From the NCBI GenBank assembly GCA_036253035.1, contig GCA_036253035.1_4123.1: 64,000 nt of DNA; one strand, given 5' to 3'. The notes under the pieces are model-generated. The model was not told where the DNA came from. It saw nothing but the letters and a program-made list of their open reading frames with translations, and ran no database searches. The stretch's first letter is position 1. Every line of letters starts with the position of its first letter. Below are positions 39,996-57,290 of the stretch, piece by piece. The translations under genes and the position numbers were made by a program. The stretch comes from a phage.

Positions 39996-41198
39996 ATGTT
40001 ACCTTTTGGAAGAATGATTAAGTACGCAAATATTGCACCAGGTCCAGAACCTGTAGAGTTCTCAGATGTTTTACAACAACATTATACAAACTGTATGTAT
40101 CTACATAACCCAACTAATACTTTATATGGTTATGGTAGTAATAACATGTATCAATTTGGTCTTGGGAATTCAGCAGCAGTTTCGTCATTTACAGTACTTG
40201 CAAGGAACTGTGCAGCCTTTTGGCTTGGTGTTCAAGGTTCATTGATGATTGATTTGGATAATAAAATATACTACACTGGGTCGGTTGGTGCATTTTCTGA
40301 TTATGGAGATGCAACACCTGTTAATGGTTATTTGACAACATGGACTGATGTTACTGTTGCATTTAATAAAATAGGTGTTATGGCTAATATGATCAAGAGT
40401 GTATATATAGGTGAAAGTACTAGAATATTATTAACCGATGGTAGAGTAATTGCGTGTGGAAGAAATACTAATGGTGAATGTGGCTCTGGTAATAAAAATT
40501 CCATCCCTACACTCACAGTTATGACTAATATGGGTGAAGTTACACATATGGCATGTTCATTACAAGGAACGCACTATATCAAATCAAATAAAGATGCATG
40601 GTTTTGTGGTAAGGATAACTTTGGTGAAAGTGGATGTGGTGGTAGTTCTGTTGTATATTTGAACAAATTCGTGATTAGTAATGTAGAACATATTAGTACT
40701 ACATACGATGTTACTTGGTGGTTTACTACTGGTGGGTCTGTATATTATAGCGGGGTTAACAGTACTGGACAAGCTGGTAATGGTACGACTACATCGGTAA
40801 ATCAGCTAACACCAATTAGGAACACATCGGTCACGGTTGATGTAAGTAAGTACAGTACTTTTATTTGTCCAAGTAATATGGGAAATGCATCAATTGGTGC
40901 ACCTATGGCACAATACGCACCATATGTTAGAAGTAGTGGTGCTAACTCATATGGTCAAGAAGGTAATGGAACTAATACATTAGTTAGAACTTGGAATATT
41001 TTTAATCTTAGTGCAATAAGTGGTGGTTATGACAATGTTCTTATGGCATCTAAAGATTGGAGCAGAACCATAATAATTACTAAAGATTATAAATTATATG
41101 CATGTGGTGGCTGGAATGGAAATGGTGGTAGATTGCCAGATGGCACTTATAGTATTACTACACTAACATTAATGCCAACGCAGTTATGGCAACAATAG
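39996..41198 (+). CDS. RCC1-like beta-propeller repeat protein with conserved N-terminal leader
   Basis: Starts MLPFGRMIKYANIAPGP; repeated G-x-N-x-x-G-Q/E-x-G-x-G motifs; AGGAGG RBS. Confidence 0.8.
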   Translation: MLPFGRMIKYANIAPGPEPVEFSDVLQQHYTNCMYLHNPTNTLYGYGSNNMYQFGLGNSAAVSSFTVLARNCAAFWLGVQGSLMIDLDNKIYYTGSVGAFSDYGDATPVNGYLTTWTDVTVAFNKIGVMANMIKSVYIGESTRILLTDGRVIACGRNTNGECGSGNKNSIPTLTVMTNMGEVTHMACSLQGTHYIKSNKDAWFCGKDNFGESGCGGSSVVYLNKFVISNVEHISTTYDVTWWFTTGGSVYYSGVNSTGQAGNGTTTSVNQLTPIRNTSVTVDVSKYSTFICPSNMGNASIGAPMAQYAPYVRSSGANSYGQEGNGTNTLVRTWNIFNLSAISGGYDNVLMASKDWSRTIIITKDYKLYACGGWNGNGGRLPDGTYSITTLTLMPTQLWQQ

Positions 41199-41206
41199 GA
41201 GGGAAT

Positions 41207-42316
41207 ATGTTACCTTTTGGAAGAATGATTAGGTATGGAAATATTGTCCCTGGTCCTAAAAAAATAATTAAAGTTGGTGCTTCTACCCAAGGCCAATTCT
41301 TATTGACTGATTCACATGATTTATATTACATAGGTAGAAATCAAGGTGGTGAATCTGGAAATGGTAATACCAACACGGTGTCTTCGTGGACATTAGTAAG
41401 TGCAGATGTTTCTAATTTTTTCGTGGGTGATCGTACACTTGTTATTATTAAAAATGATAATACGATATGGACATCAGGTCAAACGTACTGGTTCTCATCT
41501 TCTACAACTACTTCTTACAGTACTGTATTAGTTGAAAGAACTAATTGGTTTACCAATGCTATACCAGTAAGTGAAATTGCTAATATTGTATGTACAAATG
41601 GTTTAATATTTGTACTTAGCACTAATTCAGTACTCTATGGTGCAGGAGATAATGGATATCGTGGTTCTTTGGGTATTGGTTCCTCATCAATTTACACATT
41701 AACTCAATGTGCTACGAACGTTCGTAAAGTAATGACCAATGCGAATGATAGTATGTATCTTACATTAGATAATAAGCTATATAGTTCTGGATGGAATAGT
41801 AGTGGGCAGCATGGTACGGGGAACCAAACACAAATTAACACTTGGGGATTGCGTAGTTCTGGTGTAATCGATGCAGCCATTGGTGGTAATGCATTAAATT
41901 ACTATAATGGTACATCATATTTCGTATGTGGTCAAACTCCAAACTTTCTTAGTTCAGGCACGACTACATTCCGTGCCGTTCCTGTAAGTACTTTGCCTAA
42001 TAGTTCTCCGTTGTTTATGACGAATTCACCTGCCTTAAATACTGCTACACAAATGGTAATTACTAGTACATATCAGAAGGGTGTTGGGGCGAACCGTGGT
42101 TTGGGATTAAACAATTCTCAAACTGGTGCTATATATAGTGCTACCAATTTACAATTACCCGTTGAAGTTAGTGAGATTAGGGATGTTCTTTTTAGTGATG
42201 GTTTGACATCGATATTAACCAAAAATGGAGATGTGTATAGTACTGGATCGTATTACGCCATTCCAGGTGCAATCGAGGATGTTGCAGTCTTTACTAAAAT
42301 TGATTTACCAAAATAA
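41207..42316 (+). CDS. beta-propeller-like repeat protein with conserved N-terminal leader
   Basis: Starts MLPFGRMIRYGNIVPGP; Gly/Ser/Thr/Asn-rich repeats; coupled to upstream gene. Confidence 0.8.
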   Translation: MLPFGRMIRYGNIVPGPKKIIKVGASTQGQFLLTDSHDLYYIGRNQGGESGNGNTNTVSSWTLVSADVSNFFVGDRTLVIIKNDNTIWTSGQTYWFSSSTTTSYSTVLVERTNWFTNAIPVSEIANIVCTNGLIFVLSTNSVLYGAGDNGYRGSLGIGSSSIYTLTQCATNVRKVMTNANDSMYLTLDNKLYSSGWNSSGQHGTGNQTQINTWGLRSSGVIDAAIGGNALNYYNGTSYFVCGQTPNFLSSGTTTFRAVPVSTLPNSSPLFMTNSPALNTATQMVITSTYQKGVGANRGLGLNNSQTGAIYSATNLQLPVEVSEIRDVLFSDGLTSILTKNGDVYSTGSYYAIPGAIEDVAVFTKIDLPK

Positions 42317-42387
42317 CATAATGCCAGTACAGAGTACTGGCTTTCTTATTTGTATTAAATATAGTATAATGAATAAAGGAGGGAAAT
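42317..42387 (+). promoter_or_regulatory. intergenic module: terminator hairpin, T-run, TATAAT box, AGGAGG
   Basis: Hairpin GCCAGTACAGAGTACTGGC 42323-42341 + T-run; TATAAT 42365-42370. Confidence 0.6.
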
Positions 42388-54938: not shown

Positions 54939-54947
54939 GGAGAAATT

Positions 54948-56057
54948 ATGTTACCATTTGTTAGAATGTTTGATTACGGAAATATTGCACCTGAAGCACC
55001 AAAGATAAAGAAAGTACTGTGCGGTCTTGATAATTTGTACGTCCTCTATGGCGATGGTTCACTTTATGGTTGTGGGGTTAATACGTATTTGCAGTTAAAC
55101 GTTGAAAATACAGCAACAAGAAATACTTGGATATTAATTTCAGAAGGTGTTACTGATGCATGGGCTGGTGCGTACAATATTCTTTATCTCAAGGGTGAAG
55201 AATTCATAATGCATGGAGTTACCACACAATTAGGCACAGGAAATACTATGATTCCGTTGGGTGGTTTAAATGTTACTTCTTCATTTCCACATATATCTAA
55301 TATTAAAATGATATCAATTGGTGCAGATACAATGCACTACGTTGATGCTAGTGGTTCGATTGTTTATGGTAGAGGCATGAATGGTAACTATTCACTCGGT
55401 GGTGGGTATTCCACTGCTCAGAGTACTTTTGTTTCAGTTGTTAATACCGGAGCTAATACAGTCCTTGATATATTGGGTACACAGAATAACACATTAATAT
55501 TAACATCAAATAATGAACTTCTCGGTTGCGGGAGCAGTGGGTATGGTTCACTTGGCGTAAGTCCCGGACAGTATACTACACTAGTAAGCAGGTTAACAAG
55601 TGTTAAACTATTTGGTGGTAACAGTACTGGTACTCTTGCTTATTCAGCCAGCAATATATACAACGCAGGTTGGCAATATATTGGTCAACTTGGTAACGGT
55701 ATTACAACGAACACACAAGTATATCCATTTACATTTAACTCCACTCCTATTGATAGTAAGATACATAAAATATCAAAATCAAGTTCGACTTCATATGTTA
55801 ATATGTACGCAACAACCGAAGGAAAGATATACAGTACTGGTGAATTTGGTAGAAATGGTTCGGGAGGTGGTTTGAGTAGATTCACCAATACACTAACTTT
55901 AGATAATTACAACCCAGAAAAATCATCATTATACACATGTGCACATTTTAGTATAGTATTTGATGGTAATAATCAAATTTATGCTTGTGGTTCTTTTTTG
56001 TATGTACCAGGTCCTATCACCACGAACTCATGGTCTGCAATTACAATGCCGAAATAA
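54948..56057 (+). CDS. RCC1-like beta-propeller repeat protein with conserved N-terminal leader
   Basis: Starts MLPFVRMFDYGNIAP; coupled to upstream gene. Confidence 0.8.
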   Translation: MLPFVRMFDYGNIAPEAPKIKKVLCGLDNLYVLYGDGSLYGCGVNTYLQLNVENTATRNTWILISEGVTDAWAGAYNILYLKGEEFIMHGVTTQLGTGNTMIPLGGLNVTSSFPHISNIKMISIGADTMHYVDASGSIVYGRGMNGNYSLGGGYSTAQSTFVSVVNTGANTVLDILGTQNNTLILTSNNELLGCGSSGYGSLGVSPGQYTTLVSRLTSVKLFGGNSTGTLAYSASNIYNAGWQYIGQLGNGITTNTQVYPFTFNSTPIDSKIHKISKSSSTSYVNMYATTEGKIYSTGEFGRNGSGGGLSRFTNTLTLDNYNPEKSSLYTCAHFSIVFDGNNQIYACGSFLYVPGPITTNSWSAITMPK

Positions 56058-56137
56058 TACTATAAAACTATGCCAGTACTAAAGTACTGGCATTTTTTTG
56101 TCCTAAATATAATAACGATTTACATTTGGAGGATACA
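56058..56137 (+). promoter_or_regulatory. intergenic terminator/promoter/SD module (divergent)
   Basis: Hairpin GCCAGTACTAAAGTACTGGC + T7; TATAAT; GGAGG. Confidence 0.5.
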
Positions 56138-57290
56138 ATGCTACCCTTTGGAAGAATTATCACATCATCAAAAAAGAACATACAACCTTCTGTTACAAAA
56201 ATAGCTTCATCTGATACAACAGTTTTTGCCCTTATGTCAGATGGTACGTTGTACAGTAGAGGCTCTCAAGAGTTTGGGCAAATGGGTATAGGTAATATTA
56301 TAACACAAACCAAATGGGTTTTGTGCAATACAAACGTAGAAGATCTATGGGTTCGGGTATGAGTCAACATTAATTAAAAAGAAAGATAATACGATGTGGT
56401 ATGCTGGAAATGGTGCATCATTCGGTTTATCAACTGATAAGTCAACAACGTGGGCTTCTGCAAAGATAGTGTTTGATAGAATAACAGCACTTGGAAAAAC
56501 AATAAAACAAATTGCAGTTAGTGCAGGTGCATTAAGCGTATTATGTACAGACAACACGATATGGAATACGGGTTATGGTAGTTATGGACAACTGGGAAAT
56601 GGTAGAAGTACCGATTCACTTTCATCATTTGTACAAGGAACATTACCTACTGGAGTAACACCATCCAAAATACTGGCAAATTTTCTTATGCAAGGATTTA
56701 TTGGAACCGATGGGAGATTGTATTATACTGGTGCAATATCAGGCGTAGGTACAACCGACATGACGTTATATTCAAAGTACACGTTATGTTCTCAAATAAC
56801 TAATACCTATACGGTGAAAGATTATACAACAAACTCAAGTTACTTCGCTTTTGCTATAGCAAGTAATAATAGTACTAATAAATTATTTGCATATCATGGT
56901 GGTGGACAATACTTTGGTCAGTTAGCAAATGGTTCTACATCACAAACATATATTTCGTTAAGACAAACAACACAAGCACCAGGTGATATAATAAGAAGCA
57001 GTGTGGGTTATTCATATTTTTCTAATCATATTATAACTTCATTAGGTGTTTACGCAACTGGTTATAACACAGGCGATAACGCAGGTCAATTAGGTATAGG
57101 TACACAAACAGATGTGTCGGCCTATACCAAATGTGTACTACCAATAGAGATGAATATGAATAACGTATATGTTACAGCAACTTTATACAGAACTTACTTA
57201 ACCGATGGTATACAAATTTACAGTACTGGACAAAATATTACAGACGGTGGAGTTTCCAGTACTGTATTTGTCAAAGATTCACCATTTTAG
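56138..57290 (+). pseudogene. frameshifted RCC1-like array paralog
   Basis: MLPFGRIITSS... stops at 56362 after VEDLWVRV; paralogous sequence (STLIKKKDNTMWYAG...) continues in another frame to 57290; shift lies near 56350-56365. Confidence 0.5.

What the first reader, a model, noticed from the sequence alone, without database searches (positions are those of the whole stretch)
39996..57290. 16 paralogous beta-propeller-type proteins all carrying the same ~17-aa N-terminal leader
Every gene in this plus-strand array begins MLPF(G/A/V)RM(I/V/M/F)(K/N/D/E/S)YGN(I/V)(A/K)P and then diverges into RCC1-like repeats (G-x-N-x-x-GQ-x-G-x-G), Kelch-like blades (YxFGG) or a glycine-rich GGxGG domain. 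A strictly conserved leader on divergent repeat bodies suggests a shared targeting, assembly or processing signal, by analogy with capsid-targeting or anchor peptides, while the variable bodies suggest a diversified binding repertoire.
Basis: partly seen in the sequence, partly recalled or inferred. Interest (0 to 1): 0.85.

Follow-up and report, generated by a model that had tools for sequence, protein, structure and literature searches.

The report
Shared docking tag on virion proteins
A giant E. coli phage carries 15 tandem genes for virion proteins that all start with the same ~15-residue tag on unrelated binding-type domains, and strains swap whole genes at that tag; the likely result is a plug-and-play set of particle-displayed modules, mislabelled "chromosome condensation" proteins.

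Summary
There are 15 MLPF-leader genes, not 16: 14 intact plus one split by a frameshift. Twelve bodies are RCC1 propellers, two are Kelch, one is glycine-rich.

The window is a PBECO4/121Q-type (Asteriusvirus, Rak2-like) jumbo coliphage. The RCC1 array and the virion association of its members are published. The leader appears undescribed.

New here:
- The leader is conserved as a peptide. Synonymous sites vary freely in distant relatives.
- It is always at residue 1 and confined to Rak2-like phages.
- It sits on at least five unrelated body types.
- AF2 leaves it as the only low-confidence segment on two different folds.
- It clusters by phage, not by body.
- Published CBB virion MS contains peptides from inside it, so it is retained, not cleaved like a T4 capsid-targeting sequence.
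- In Asteriusvirus a 71-nt terminator/promoter-like/RBS cassette plus the 45-nt leader coding region forms a ~110-nt repeat. 23 of 25 inter-strain homology-block ends fall there.

Best reading (0.55): a retained docking tag attaches swappable adhesin-like modules to a common virion site, and a PeSL-like cassette shuffles them. The docking site is unknown. "DNA condensation" is unsupported (pI 5.1–8.5).

The parts
39996..41198 (+). G1: leader MLPFGRMIKYANIAP + RCC1-like propeller (400 aa). The ORF listing starts at 39978 because of an in-frame ATG inside the cassette; the RBS places the true start at 39996.
41207..42316 (+). G2: leader + RCC1-like propeller (369 aa). No upstream cassette; lies 8 nt after the G1 stop (coupled).
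42388..43527 (+). G3: leader + RCC1-like propeller (379 aa)
43599..44747 (+). G4: leader + RCC1-like propeller (382 aa); 68% identical to G7
44819..46006 (+). G5: leader + RCC1-like propeller (395 aa)
46079..46816 (+). G6: leader MLPFGRMIKYGNEIEY + glycine-rich body (245 aa), related to PF21722-bearing proteins. AF2 pLDDT 92; leader residues 1-8 score below 50.
46888..48036 (+). G7: leader + RCC1-like propeller (382 aa)
48108..49271 (+). G8: leader + RCC1-like propeller (387 aa); absent from 121Q, SP27 and PBECO4
49343..50494 (+). G9: leader + RCC1-like propeller (383 aa)
50567..51742 (+). G10: leader + RCC1-like 7-bladed propeller (391 aa). AF2 pTM 0.85; Foldseek matches UVR8/HERC/RPGR/RCC1 at E ~1e-20. 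Leader pLDDT 49 (residues 1-10) and 69 (11-20).
51827..53014 (+). G11: leader + RCC1-like propeller (395 aa); variant cassette; 48% identical to G1; absent from the four relatives compared
53025..53972 (+). G12: leader MLPFVRMLEYGNIAP + Kelch propeller (315 aa); no cassette (coupled to G11)
54048..54938 (+). G13: leader MLPFGRMLSYGNTIN + Kelch propeller (296 aa); variant cassette
54948..56057 (+). G14: leader + RCC1-like propeller (369 aa); no cassette (coupled to G13)
56138..57290 (+). G15: RCC1-like gene split by a 1-nt frameshift (GGG run 56355-56357) into a 74-aa leader-bearing ORF (MLPFGRIITSS, subtype-B-like; codon 2 is CTA) and ORF 56394-57290. The same split is annotated in 121Q.
39925..39995 (+). 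Cassette upstream of G1: degenerate hairpin, T-run, exact promoter-like box 39964-39985, RBS
42317..42387 (+). Cassette: hairpin GCCAGTAC-AGA-GTACTGGC + TTTCTTATTT; box TTAAATATAGTATAATGAATAA; RBS AAGGAGGG
43528..43598 (+). Cassette (same architecture)
44748..44818 (+). Cassette (same architecture)
46007..46078 (+). Cassette (one mismatch in the box)
46817..46887 (+). Cassette (stem with mismatches)
48037..48107 (+). Cassette
49272..49342 (+). Cassette
50495..50566 (+). Cassette
51743..51826 (+). Cassette, variant: altered hairpin, exact box, longer RBS spacer
53973..54047 (+). Divergent cassette: hairpin GCTCAGTACTGAATAAGTGCTGGGC + T-run; box ATTAAATACATTATAAT
56058..56137 (+). Divergent cassette: hairpin ATGCCAGTAC-TAAA-GTACTGGCAT + T7; box CCTAAATATAATAAC

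Best explanation
Architecture. Each gene encodes a virion-associated protein with three parts: a 15-19-residue N-terminal leader (M-L-P-F-x-R-M-h-x-Y-G-N-I-A-P), a short and often proline-rich linker, and an autonomously folding interaction domain. The domain is an RCC1 propeller in 12 genes, a Kelch propeller in 2, and a glycine-rich domain in 1.

Proposed function of the leader. It is a flexible tag, retained in the mature particle, that docks otherwise unrelated modules onto one common, phage-specific site on the virion of Rak2-like jumbo phages. Alternatively it hands them to one common assembly factor. A particle would then carry a mixed repertoire of up to about 15 adhesin-like modules.

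DNA level. In the Escherichia/Salmonella Asteriusvirus group, most genes are preceded by a 71-nt cassette: terminator hairpin, promoter-like AT box, then RBS. That cassette plus the 45-nt leader-coding segment forms a ~110-120-nt direct repeat. Homologous recombination between these repeats adds, deletes and reorders whole genes, and any body placed behind the repeat automatically acquires expression signals and the docking tag.

Shown:
- modular anatomy;
- selection on the leader as a peptide;
- strictly N-terminal position;
- lineage restriction;
- presence of the proteins in virions;
- retention of leader residues 7-20 in virions;
- whole-gene mosaicism with block ends at the repeat.

Inferred:
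- that the leader docks (rather than serving some other shared step);
- where it docks;
- that the bodies bind host or environmental ligands;
- that recombination at the repeat is the causal mechanism;
- the class of the promoter.
For: Modularity:
- Leader 76% identical against bodies 27%.
- The leader sits on RCC1, Kelch and Gly-rich bodies here. In CBB, GAP32, BF and XbC2 it also sits on Laminin_G_3, phrog_6011 'virion structural protein', an RCC1+Kelch fusion and unknown 200-250-aa bodies.

Not part of the fold:
- AF2 of G10: pTM 0.85; residues 1-10 pLDDT 49; first strand at residue 20.
- AF2 of G6: pLDDT 92; residues 1-8 below 50; body from residue 20.

Selection on the peptide:
- In XbC2 and CBB the upstream DNA is unconserved, and invariant residues show free synonymous variation: P3, P5, V8, Q9 CAG/CAA 3:3, Y10 TAC/TAT 5:4, G11, N12.
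- Three window genes lack the cassette yet keep the leader.

Position and lineage:
- About 53 genuine clusters among 1.84 billion representatives, matched at the N-terminus in all but two fragment or mis-called ORFs.
- Two different leader queries find only ~60 Rak2-like jumbo-phage records, and no other phage even at E up to 10.

Leader tracks the phage, not the body:
- Identity at positions 5-14 is 0.50 for same phage with different fold, against 0.26 for different phage with same fold; permutation p below 2e-4.
- Homologs of the Gly-rich body on ~150-250-kb contigs and in PVP-SE1 begin M[LI]E[LM]L. Only four homologs begin M[LI]PF (P0065, P0067, P0068, P0080). Only P0065 is verifiably Asteriusvirus; the others are on ~2-kb contigs.

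Virion presence and retention:
- phAPEC6 gp003/5/6/7/9/10 are members of this array.
- GAP32 gp001, and CBB_548/549/551/552/553 with 2-7 peptides and 9.5-51% coverage.
- CBB MS peptides R.LLQYGNK.K and K.YANVIVEYATK.F map to leader residues 7-13 and 10-20. The reported positions are reproduced when counting from the upstream stop codons.

Adhesin-like bodies:
- Lectin-fold and propeller domains that match C-terminal parts of large virion or tail families in PHROGs.
- pI 5.1-8.5, so not DNA-binding-like.

Recombination joint:
- Box found 10 times against 0 expected; conserved stems with free loops.
- The cassette is confined to Asteriusvirus arrays, 6-11 copies per genome.
- Whole-gene presence/absence and reordering among 121Q, SP27, PBECO4 and phAPEC6.
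- 23 of 25 informative block ends at >=95% identity lie within -84 to +45 of a leader ATG, a zone that is 11% of the array. Adjacent blocks overlap by 108 nt in SP27.
- No database phage has the same array.
- PeSL precedent: PMC2839356, PMC4122927.
Against: - No direct evidence for where these proteins sit (outside or inside the capsid, or on the tail), or that the leader binds anything.
- Peptide counts in phAPEC6 are low (1-4), so a contaminating or low-copy association is not excluded.
- MS does not cover leader residues 1-6, so removal of a very short N-terminal piece is not excluded. The database was stop-to-stop, so the N-terminal peptide was not tryptic.
- Low pLDDT does not prove the leader is free. 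AF2 draws a weak helix at residues 4-9.
- The Gly-rich homolog in PVP-SE1 lies beside DNA polymerase, not in a structural module, so that body is not necessarily a virion adhesin.
- Block ends at the repeat are partly forced, because BLAST extends through any shared repeat. The robust part is that the differences are whole genes.
- Within-phage leader similarity could come from homogenisation rather than co-evolution with a partner, at least in Asteriusvirus.
- CBB has tail hairs but no RCC1 genes, so RCC1 proteins are not the hairs as such.
Confidence: 0.55

Rival explanations
1. Internal head proteins. The leader is an uncleaved capsid- or inner-body-targeting signal that loads a diversified set of proteins into the prohead. 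They either organise DNA (the 'DNA condensation / inner body' idea of the phAPEC6 paper) or are ejected into the host as effectors or anti-defence binders.
For: - The proteins are in virions.
- The phAPEC6 authors propose an inner-body role.
- These phages have a T4 gp21-like prohead protease/scaffold and a gp23-like capsid protein, so a T4-like core-targeting route exists.
- AF2 draws a short helix in the leader, as for T4 targeting sequences (the T4 comparison is from my own knowledge).
- Propellers are classic protein-binding scaffolds.
Against: - The leader is retained in virions, whereas T4-type targeting sequences are cleaved (own knowledge).
- Position 9 is K/N/D/E/S/R, so there is no conserved LxE site.
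- pI 5.1-8.5 with K+R about equal to D+E argues against DNA condensation.
- Lectin-fold (LamG) bodies, and matches to distal parts of tail or virion proteins, fit surface display better.
- Folded 40-kDa propellers are poor ejection substrates (inference).
Confidence: 0.2
2. The leader is recognised by a shared assembly factor or chaperone, or mediates a shared oligomerisation or quality-control step in the cytoplasm. It is not itself the structural contact with the virion.
For: - One tag on many folds.
- It is flexible.
- It is phage-specific in flavour.
- All of this fits any single trans-acting partner equally well.
Against: - Retention in the mature particle is not required by this model.
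- No candidate chaperone is linked to the array: its neighbours are small early-type genes and membrane proteins.
- Nothing here distinguishes this sharply from docking.
Confidence: 0.12
3. The conservation is mainly a nucleic-acid feature: a translation-initiation or regulatory element, or simply the homology tract for recombination or gene conversion. The peptide would be a by-product.
For: - In this window the leader DNA is nearly invariant, including most synonymous sites, and is continuous with an invariant upstream cassette.
- Codon 2 is TTA in 32 of 33 leaders examined, against 45% TTA among body Leu codons.
- Block ends fall at the repeat.
Against: - In CBB and XbC2 the peptide is conserved while upstream DNA and synonymous sites vary freely.
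- Three window genes keep the leader without the cassette.
- The 71-nt cassette is genus-restricted, while the peptide spans several genera.
- This view explains the extra DNA identity within Asteriusvirus, not the leader itself.
Confidence: 0.06
4. The leader is an integral structural element of the fold, for example the 'velcro' strand that closes the propeller.
For: Propellers are often closed by a terminal strand (own knowledge). All 14 propeller genes have the leader.
Against: - AF2 places the first propeller strand at residues 20-25 and leaves residues 1-10 at pLDDT 49.
- The same leader precedes non-propeller folds: Gly-rich, LamG, phrog_6011.
- Gly-rich homologs fold with a different N-terminus.
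Confidence: 0.03

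Closest known systems
Receptor-binding and tail-fibre proteins with conserved N-terminal anchors on variable C-terminal domains (branched fibre systems of phiKp24/RaK2, G7C, CBA120; T4 gp10-like docking), as summarised in PMC9700779
   Same: Many paralogous virion proteins in one phage. Each has a conserved N-terminal attachment part and a variable distal domain. Repertoire size (14 depolymerases in phiKp24) is comparable. A short N-terminal peptide is proposed there to mediate attachment for one fibre.
   Different: The tag here is only 15-19 residues with no detectable domain. 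The bodies are propellers, lectin folds and a Gly-rich domain, not beta-helical depolymerases. The RaK2/phiKp24 branch lacks the MLPF family at the sensitivity used. Attachment has not been demonstrated.
PeSL (promoter-early stem-loop) composite terminator/promoter motifs of T4-like phages (PMC2839356, PMC4122927)
   Same: A short conserved stem-loop plus promoter-like motif between genes of a hyperplastic region. Strain differences are whole-gene indels and swaps joined at the motif.
   Different: The repeat here runs on through the RBS into the first ~45 nt of the CDS, so it transfers a protein tag as well as expression signals. It serves virion proteins rather than early ORFans. The promoter class is undetermined, and there is no good -35 for the TATAAT.
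T4 capsid-targeting sequences of internal proteins (IPI-III, Alt); from my own knowledge
   Same: A short N-terminal peptide shared by unrelated proteins that end up in the virion, in a phage lineage with T4-like head morphogenesis genes.
   Different: T4 targeting sequences are removed by the prohead protease at LxE sites. Here, leader residues 7-20 are found in virions, and no conserved cleavage motif follows the leader.
Eukaryotic RCC1 / 'regulator of chromosome condensation' (the database annotation of these genes)
   Same: Seven-bladed RCC1-type propeller fold. Pfam PF00415 and PF13540 score above their cut-offs, and Foldseek matches UVR8, HERC, RPGR and RCC1.
   Different: No evidence of Ran-GEF or chromatin function. 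The proteins are neutral, are in virions, and share their tag with Kelch, LamG and Gly-rich proteins. The label names a fold, not a function.
Capsid decoration proteins at the hexamer centre (T4 Hoc position); 121Q and phAPEC6 have an unassigned hexon-centre, fibre-anchoring density (PMC5646251, PMC7247149)
   Same: Non-essential-looking, surface-type interaction domains on a large capsid. An unassigned density exists at the right kind of site in phages that have the array.
   Different: No sequence or fold relation to Hoc. The assignment of MLPF proteins to that density is only a correlation.

Membership tests
RCC1-like beta-propeller fold (Pfam PF00415, PF13540, PF25390) | RCC1 repeat motifs scoring above the Pfam gathering cut-off | tested here: met
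   PF00415 and/or PF13540 score above cut-off in 11 of the 12 RCC1-type genes. G15 passes only via PF13540 on its 5' fragment. The whole-domain model PF25390 is below its 150-bit cut-off in all.
RCC1-like beta-propeller fold (Pfam PF00415, PF13540, PF25390) | Seven-bladed propeller structure | tested here: met
   AF2 model of G10: pTM 0.85. Foldseek to UVR8, HERC1, RPGR and RCC1: E 1e-20 to 1e-15, TM ~0.7. This is a prediction, for one member only.
RCC1 as 'regulator of chromosome condensation' / DNA-condensation protein (functional family) | Basic or DNA/chromatin-binding character; Ran-GEF activity | tested here: not met
   pI 5.1-8.5 with K+R about equal to D+E in all 14 intact proteins. 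GEF activity cannot be tested here. No Ran-like partner is known in bacteria (own knowledge).
Kelch beta-propeller | Kelch repeats above the Pfam cut-off | tested here: met
   G12: PF24681 59.2 (cut-off 50), PF13964 45.3 (25.3), PF01344 32.3 (20.1). G13: PF24681 52.2 (50).
Glycine-rich domain family PF21722 | Match to PF21722 | tested here: inconclusive
   G6 gave no Pfam hit at E<=0.01 in our scan. It has 196 homologs, many carrying precomputed PF21722, and matches phrog_4474 at 2e-69. The fold is confidently predicted but has no convincing PDB neighbour.
T4-type capsid-targeting sequence (CTS) | Short shared N-terminal peptide on unrelated virion proteins | tested here: met
T4-type capsid-targeting sequence (CTS) | Removed from the mature protein by the prohead protease at a conserved (L/I)xE site | tested here: not met
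   Leader peptides covering residues 7-13 and 10-20 are present in CBB virions. Position 9 is not a conserved Glu. Only two proteins of one relative are covered, and residues 1-6 were not observed.
T4-type capsid-targeting sequence (CTS) | Cargo located inside the capsid | not testable with these tools
   Needs fractionation, protease shaving or cryo-EM.
PeSL-type composite terminator/promoter shuffling motif | Conserved stem-loop with T-run directly followed by a promoter motif, repeated between genes | tested here: met
   Ten exact or near-exact boxes against 0 expected. Hairpins conserved in the stem and variable in the loop. 18 terminator-like sites against 7.3 expected.
PeSL-type composite terminator/promoter shuffling motif | Inter-strain indels and swaps joined at the motif | tested here: met
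   23 of 25 block ends lie in the cassette-leader zone; whole-gene differences among 4 relatives. Partly forced by the repeat.
PeSL-type composite terminator/promoter shuffling motif | Early sigma-70 promoter activity | not tested
   A TATAAT is present but the -35 is poor. Virion proteins suggest late expression. No transcript data were found.
Phage RBP / tail-fibre N-terminal anchor domains (T7 gp17-like, T4 gp10-like docking) | Recognisable conserved N-terminal anchor domain (tens to hundreds of residues) | tested here: not met
   No Pfam or PHROG domain covers residues 1-20. The conserved part is 15-19 residues.
Phage RBP / tail-fibre N-terminal anchor domains (T7 gp17-like, T4 gp10-like docking) | Physical attachment to baseplate, fibre or adaptor | not testable with these tools
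   Needs structure or binding assays.

The most novel reading that the evidence does not exclude
Rak2-like jumbo phages may have a natural 'phage-display' system. A clade-wide ~15-residue N-terminal plug (MLPF..YGN) would be sufficient to mount any folded domain on a dedicated virion site. In Asteriusvirus it is welded to a terminator-promoter-RBS cassette, so recombination at one ~110-nt repeat installs expression signals and the mounting tag together. This would give each strain its own mixed set of up to ~15 displayed adhesins. Functionally this would parallel the hyperbranched depolymerase fibres of the RaK2/phiKp24 branch, built on a different principle.
Probability: 0.35. Interest if true: 0.8.

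Novelty: new variant of a known kind. Interest (0 to 1): 0.62.

Why it matters
- It would replace a misleading annotation, "regulator of chromosome condensation", still used in 2026 genome papers, with a testable structural role.
- It identifies a minimal, transferable peptide that may be enough to load cargo onto a jumbo-phage particle. That is useful for engineering therapeutic E. coli and Salmonella jumbo phages.
- It gives a concrete sequence to look for in unassigned cryo-EM densities: the hexon-centre and sheath-ring fibre bases of 121Q and phAPEC6.
- It extends the PeSL idea from shuffling of expression units to shuffling of tagged protein modules, a phage analogue of exon shuffling behind a constant leader.
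- It explains why array content differs between otherwise near-identical strains, which may bear on host range or environmental adherence.

Tried and rejected
- Word-indexed homolog search with RCC1 paralog G10 returned only 9 close orthologs. That was useless for distant relatives, so I used an exhaustive profile of the N-terminal 30 residues instead.
- Three hits of that profile (P0013, P0019, P0064) are low-complexity repeats and were discarded.
- Gly-rich model against PDB gave only weak hits (Pam3 fibre, Bxb1 tail tip, ALK GRD; TM at most 0.28). A profile search against PDB sequences found nothing. This is not used as evidence beyond a hint.
- PVP-SE1 context of the Gly-rich homolog shows a single gene next to DNA polymerase, with no array and no shared-leader family. 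So the MLELL start there is probably just that family's native N-terminus, not a second tag system.
- Literature searches for the leader or for a structural placement of these proteins found nothing.
- The phAPEC6 paper has no supplement held, so there are no peptide-level data for Asteriusvirus itself.
- Rfam and tRNA scans of the window were empty.
- Considered and rejected: a signal peptide or lipobox (the leader is too short and not hydrophobic); an N-degron (Met-Leu is not processed by methionine aminopeptidase; own knowledge); RCC1 proteins as the tail 'hairs' (CBB has hairs but no RCC1).
- It was fixed.

Full report
**What is there**

The window comes from a PBECO4/121Q/SP27-type jumbo coliphage (Asteriusvirus, a 'Rak2-like' phage). 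Its best DNA matches are 97-99% identical, but no database record covers even 80% of the array region.

Between 39996 and 57290, on the + strand, 15 ORFs begin with MLPF. There are none elsewhere in the window in any frame. Fourteen are intact.

The fifteenth (56138) is cut by a one-base frameshift in a GGG run into a 74-aa leader-bearing piece and the leaderless ORF 56394-57290. The same split is annotated in 121Q.

Pfam assigns 12 genes to RCC1-type repeats and 2 to Kelch. One, the 245-aa glycine-rich protein, is unassigned. Its homologs carry PF21722.

- there are 15 genes, not 16;
- one body is not a propeller;
- the leader has six invariant and two nearly invariant positions rather than being strictly conserved.

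**How unusual is the leader?**

Pairwise identity is 76% over the first 15 residues and 27% over the bodies. The latter is about the floor for global alignments.

A profile of only the first 30 residues, run against 1.84 billion representative proteins, returned 56 clusters at E<=0.001. About 53 are genuine. In all but two fragment or mis-called ORFs the match is at the N-terminus: residue 1, or a few residues after an over-called start.

tblastn with two different leader variants recovered the same ~60 phage records. All are 310-386-kb Rak2-like phages of Escherichia, Salmonella, Cronobacter, Pectobacterium, Erwinia, Serratia, Yersinia, Klebsiella aerogenes and Xanthomonas. No other phage appeared even at E<=10. 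RaK2, K64-1 and phiKp24 were absent.

**Protein-level or DNA-level conservation?**

Both, in two layers.

*DNA layer.* In this window the leader DNA is nearly invariant and continuous with a ~71-nt intergenic cassette. The cassette has these parts, in order:
- a hairpin, GCCAGTAC-N3-4-GTACTGGC, with conserved stems and free loops;
- a T-run;
- the box TTAAATATAGTATAATGAATAA, present 10 times against 0 expected;
- an RBS.

*Peptide layer.* Three window genes (41207, 53025, 54948) lack the cassette and are coupled to the preceding gene, yet keep the leader.

In the syntenic arrays of CBB (7 genes), XbC2 (11), BF (at least 5) and GAP32 (at least 2), every gene starts MLPF. There the upstream DNA is unconserved, and invariant residues use mixed synonymous codons.

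The 71-nt cassette alone is confined to the Escherichia/Salmonella Asteriusvirus group, at 6-11 copies per genome.

So the peptide is old and under purifying selection. The DNA cassette is a younger, genus-specific addition.

**Is the leader part of the fold?**

No, as far as prediction can tell.
- AF2 of the RCC1 paralog G10 (pTM 0.85) gives a 7-bladed propeller. Foldseek matches UVR8, HERC, RPGR and RCC1 at E ~1e-20. The first strand is at residues 20-25, and pLDDT is 49 for residues 1-10.
- AF2 of the Gly-rich G6 (pLDDT 92) again leaves only residues 1-8 below 50, with the body starting at residue 20.
- In relatives the leader also precedes Laminin_G_3 lectin folds, the phrog_6011 'virion structural protein' family, an RCC1+Kelch fusion and unknown bodies.
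- Gly-rich homologs on ~150-250-kb contigs and in PVP-SE1 begin M[LI]E[LM]L. Only four begin M[LI]PF, and only one of those (P0065) is verifiably Asteriusvirus. So the tag is exchangeable relative to the body.
- Leaders cluster by phage rather than by fold: identity 0.50 against 0.26 at the variable positions, p below 2e-4.

**Are the proteins in the virion, and is the leader kept?**

Published ESI-MS/MS found these array members in purified particles:
- phAPEC6 gp003/5/6/7/9/10, which are members of this array;
- GAP32 gp001;
- CBB_548/549/551/552/553.

The CBB peptide table contains R.LLQYGNK.K and K.YANVIVEYATK.F. The database entries are stop-to-stop ORFs. Counting from the upstream stop codons visible reproduces the reported positions (11-17 and 13-23). 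The peptides therefore map to leader residues 7-13 and 10-20.

The leader is thus retained in mature particles in at least two proteins of one relative. No conserved LxE-type site follows it, although these phages have a T4 gp21-like protease.

**What the bodies suggest**

They are neutral (pI 5.1-8.5), which argues against the 'DNA condensation' label that is still used.

They are interaction folds: propellers, ConA-like lectin folds and a Gly-rich domain. In PHROGs they match the C-terminal parts of much larger virion or tail proteins. That is what distal adhesin modules look like. Ligands are untested.

**The array as a shuffling unit**

Against 121Q, SP27, PBECO4 and phAPEC6, the genes are either 99-100% identical, clearly diverged (70-95%), absent, or in a different order. 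G11-G13 are missing from all four.

Of 25 informative ends of homology blocks at >=95% identity, 23 lie between -84 and +45 of a leader ATG. That zone is 11% of the array. Typical ends are at +43 to +45, the end of the conserved leader DNA. Typical starts are at the hairpin. In SP27, neighbouring blocks overlap by 108 nt, which is one cassette plus leader.

Part of this is forced, because BLAST extends through any shared repeat. The firm result is that strains differ by whole genes joined at the repeat.

This is the pattern described for PeSL motifs in T4-like phages. The difference is that the repeat here reaches into the coding sequence, so it carries the tag along.

**Most likely mechanism (confidence 0.55)**

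A retained, flexible N-terminal docking tag mounts heterologous adhesin-like modules on a common, phage-specific virion site or hands them to one common assembly factor. A PeSL-like cassette fused to the tag-coding DNA lets recombination add, remove and reorder tagged modules.

**Where do they dock?**

Unknown. There are only correlates:
- 121Q and phAPEC6 show an unassigned hexon-centre, fibre-anchoring density, and fibres on capsid and sheath.
- phiKp24, whose branch lacks the family, has a capsid with no decoration protein.
- CBB and GAP32 structural proteins without a RaK2 homolog, including the long-tail-fibre proximal subunit CBB_226 and CBB_225, are candidate partners.

**Rivals**

| Rival | Confidence | Main weakness |
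|---|---|---|
| Internal head or ejected proteins with an uncleaved targeting tag | 0.20 | Leader retention, neutral charge, lectin-type bodies |
| Tag recognised by a chaperone or assembly factor | 0.12 | Not separable from docking here |
| Mainly a nucleic-acid element | 0.06 | Contradicted by CBB and XbC2 |
| Part of the fold | 0.03 | Contradicted by AF2 and by the range of folds |

**Novelty**

Already published:
- the RCC1 array;
- its tandem-duplication origin;
- the virion association of some members.

Not found in the searchable literature:
- the clade-wide leader across unrelated folds;
- its retention in virions;
- its phage-specific flavour;
- the cassette-plus-leader recombination joint.

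It is a new variant of known kinds (N-terminally anchored modular virion proteins, and PeSL-type shuffling), not a new category.

Noticed in passing
window, whole; dense at 15823-25059 and 34451-36011: The 8-bp palindrome CAGTACTG occurs 49 times against ~1 expected (maximum 3 in 100 shuffles). It has no flanking consensus and occurs in both coding and non-coding DNA. Several copies sit in the spacer of sigma-70-like promoters (for example 31039 on the + strand; 16850, 17167 and 18814 on the - strand). Its half-sites are the stem arms of the array's terminator hairpins. It could be a binding site for a phage regulator or another DNA-level signal; this is unexplained.
   Followed up: partly
window 34310-36255: A ~1.9-kb stretch without ORFs of 50 aa or more (apart from one spurious ORF), also CDS-free in the 121Q, SP27 and PBECO4 annotations. 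It contains 10 CAGTACTG copies (often as TTCAGTACTGAA) and an 8-nt periodic array at 35091-35242. No Rfam or tRNA hit. It could be an origin, a packaging region or a regulatory region.
   Followed up: partly
window 36256-39893, minus strand: A tandem array of ~15 paralogous ~60-aa genes (M.KE[FY]Y ... L[IL]YRY), transcribed divergently from the MLPF array. [quoted passage not shown] Function unknown.
   Followed up: partly
window 57271-59080 and beyond, minus strand: A run of small paralogous predicted membrane proteins immediately downstream of the array, convergent with it. The same arrangement (MLPF array followed by opposite-strand 'membrane protein' paralogs) is annotated in CBB. The conserved synteny is unexplained.
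   Followed up: no
window 56355-56357 (G15): A one-base frameshift in a GGG run splits an RCC1 gene. The split is shared with 121Q (gp235/gp234), and only the 3' part is annotated in PBECO4. Either a conserved pseudogene or a slippery site; not resolved.
   Followed up: partly
codon 2 of every leader (e.g. window 39999-40001); L001, L005: Leu2 is encoded by TTA in 32 of 33 leaders examined at the DNA level (14 in the window, 7 in CBB, 11 in XbC2; the exception is G15, CTA). TTA is only 45% of Leu codons in the bodies. This suggests an extra nucleotide-level constraint at the start of the mRNA.
   Followed up: partly
L005 269-2425 (Xanthomonas phage XbC2_591): One leader-bearing protein fuses an RCC1 propeller to a Kelch propeller (688 aa from the MLPF start), so bodies can be concatenated behind a single tag.
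   Followed up: no
P0069-P0100 and others (homologs of G6): Outside the M[LI]PF carriers, the ~250-aa Gly-rich family has its own conserved N-terminus, M[LI]E[LM]L, across many ~150-250-kb contigs. In PVP-SE1 the gene sits beside DNA polymerase. Whether that N-terminus is also a functional tag was not examined.
   Followed up: partly
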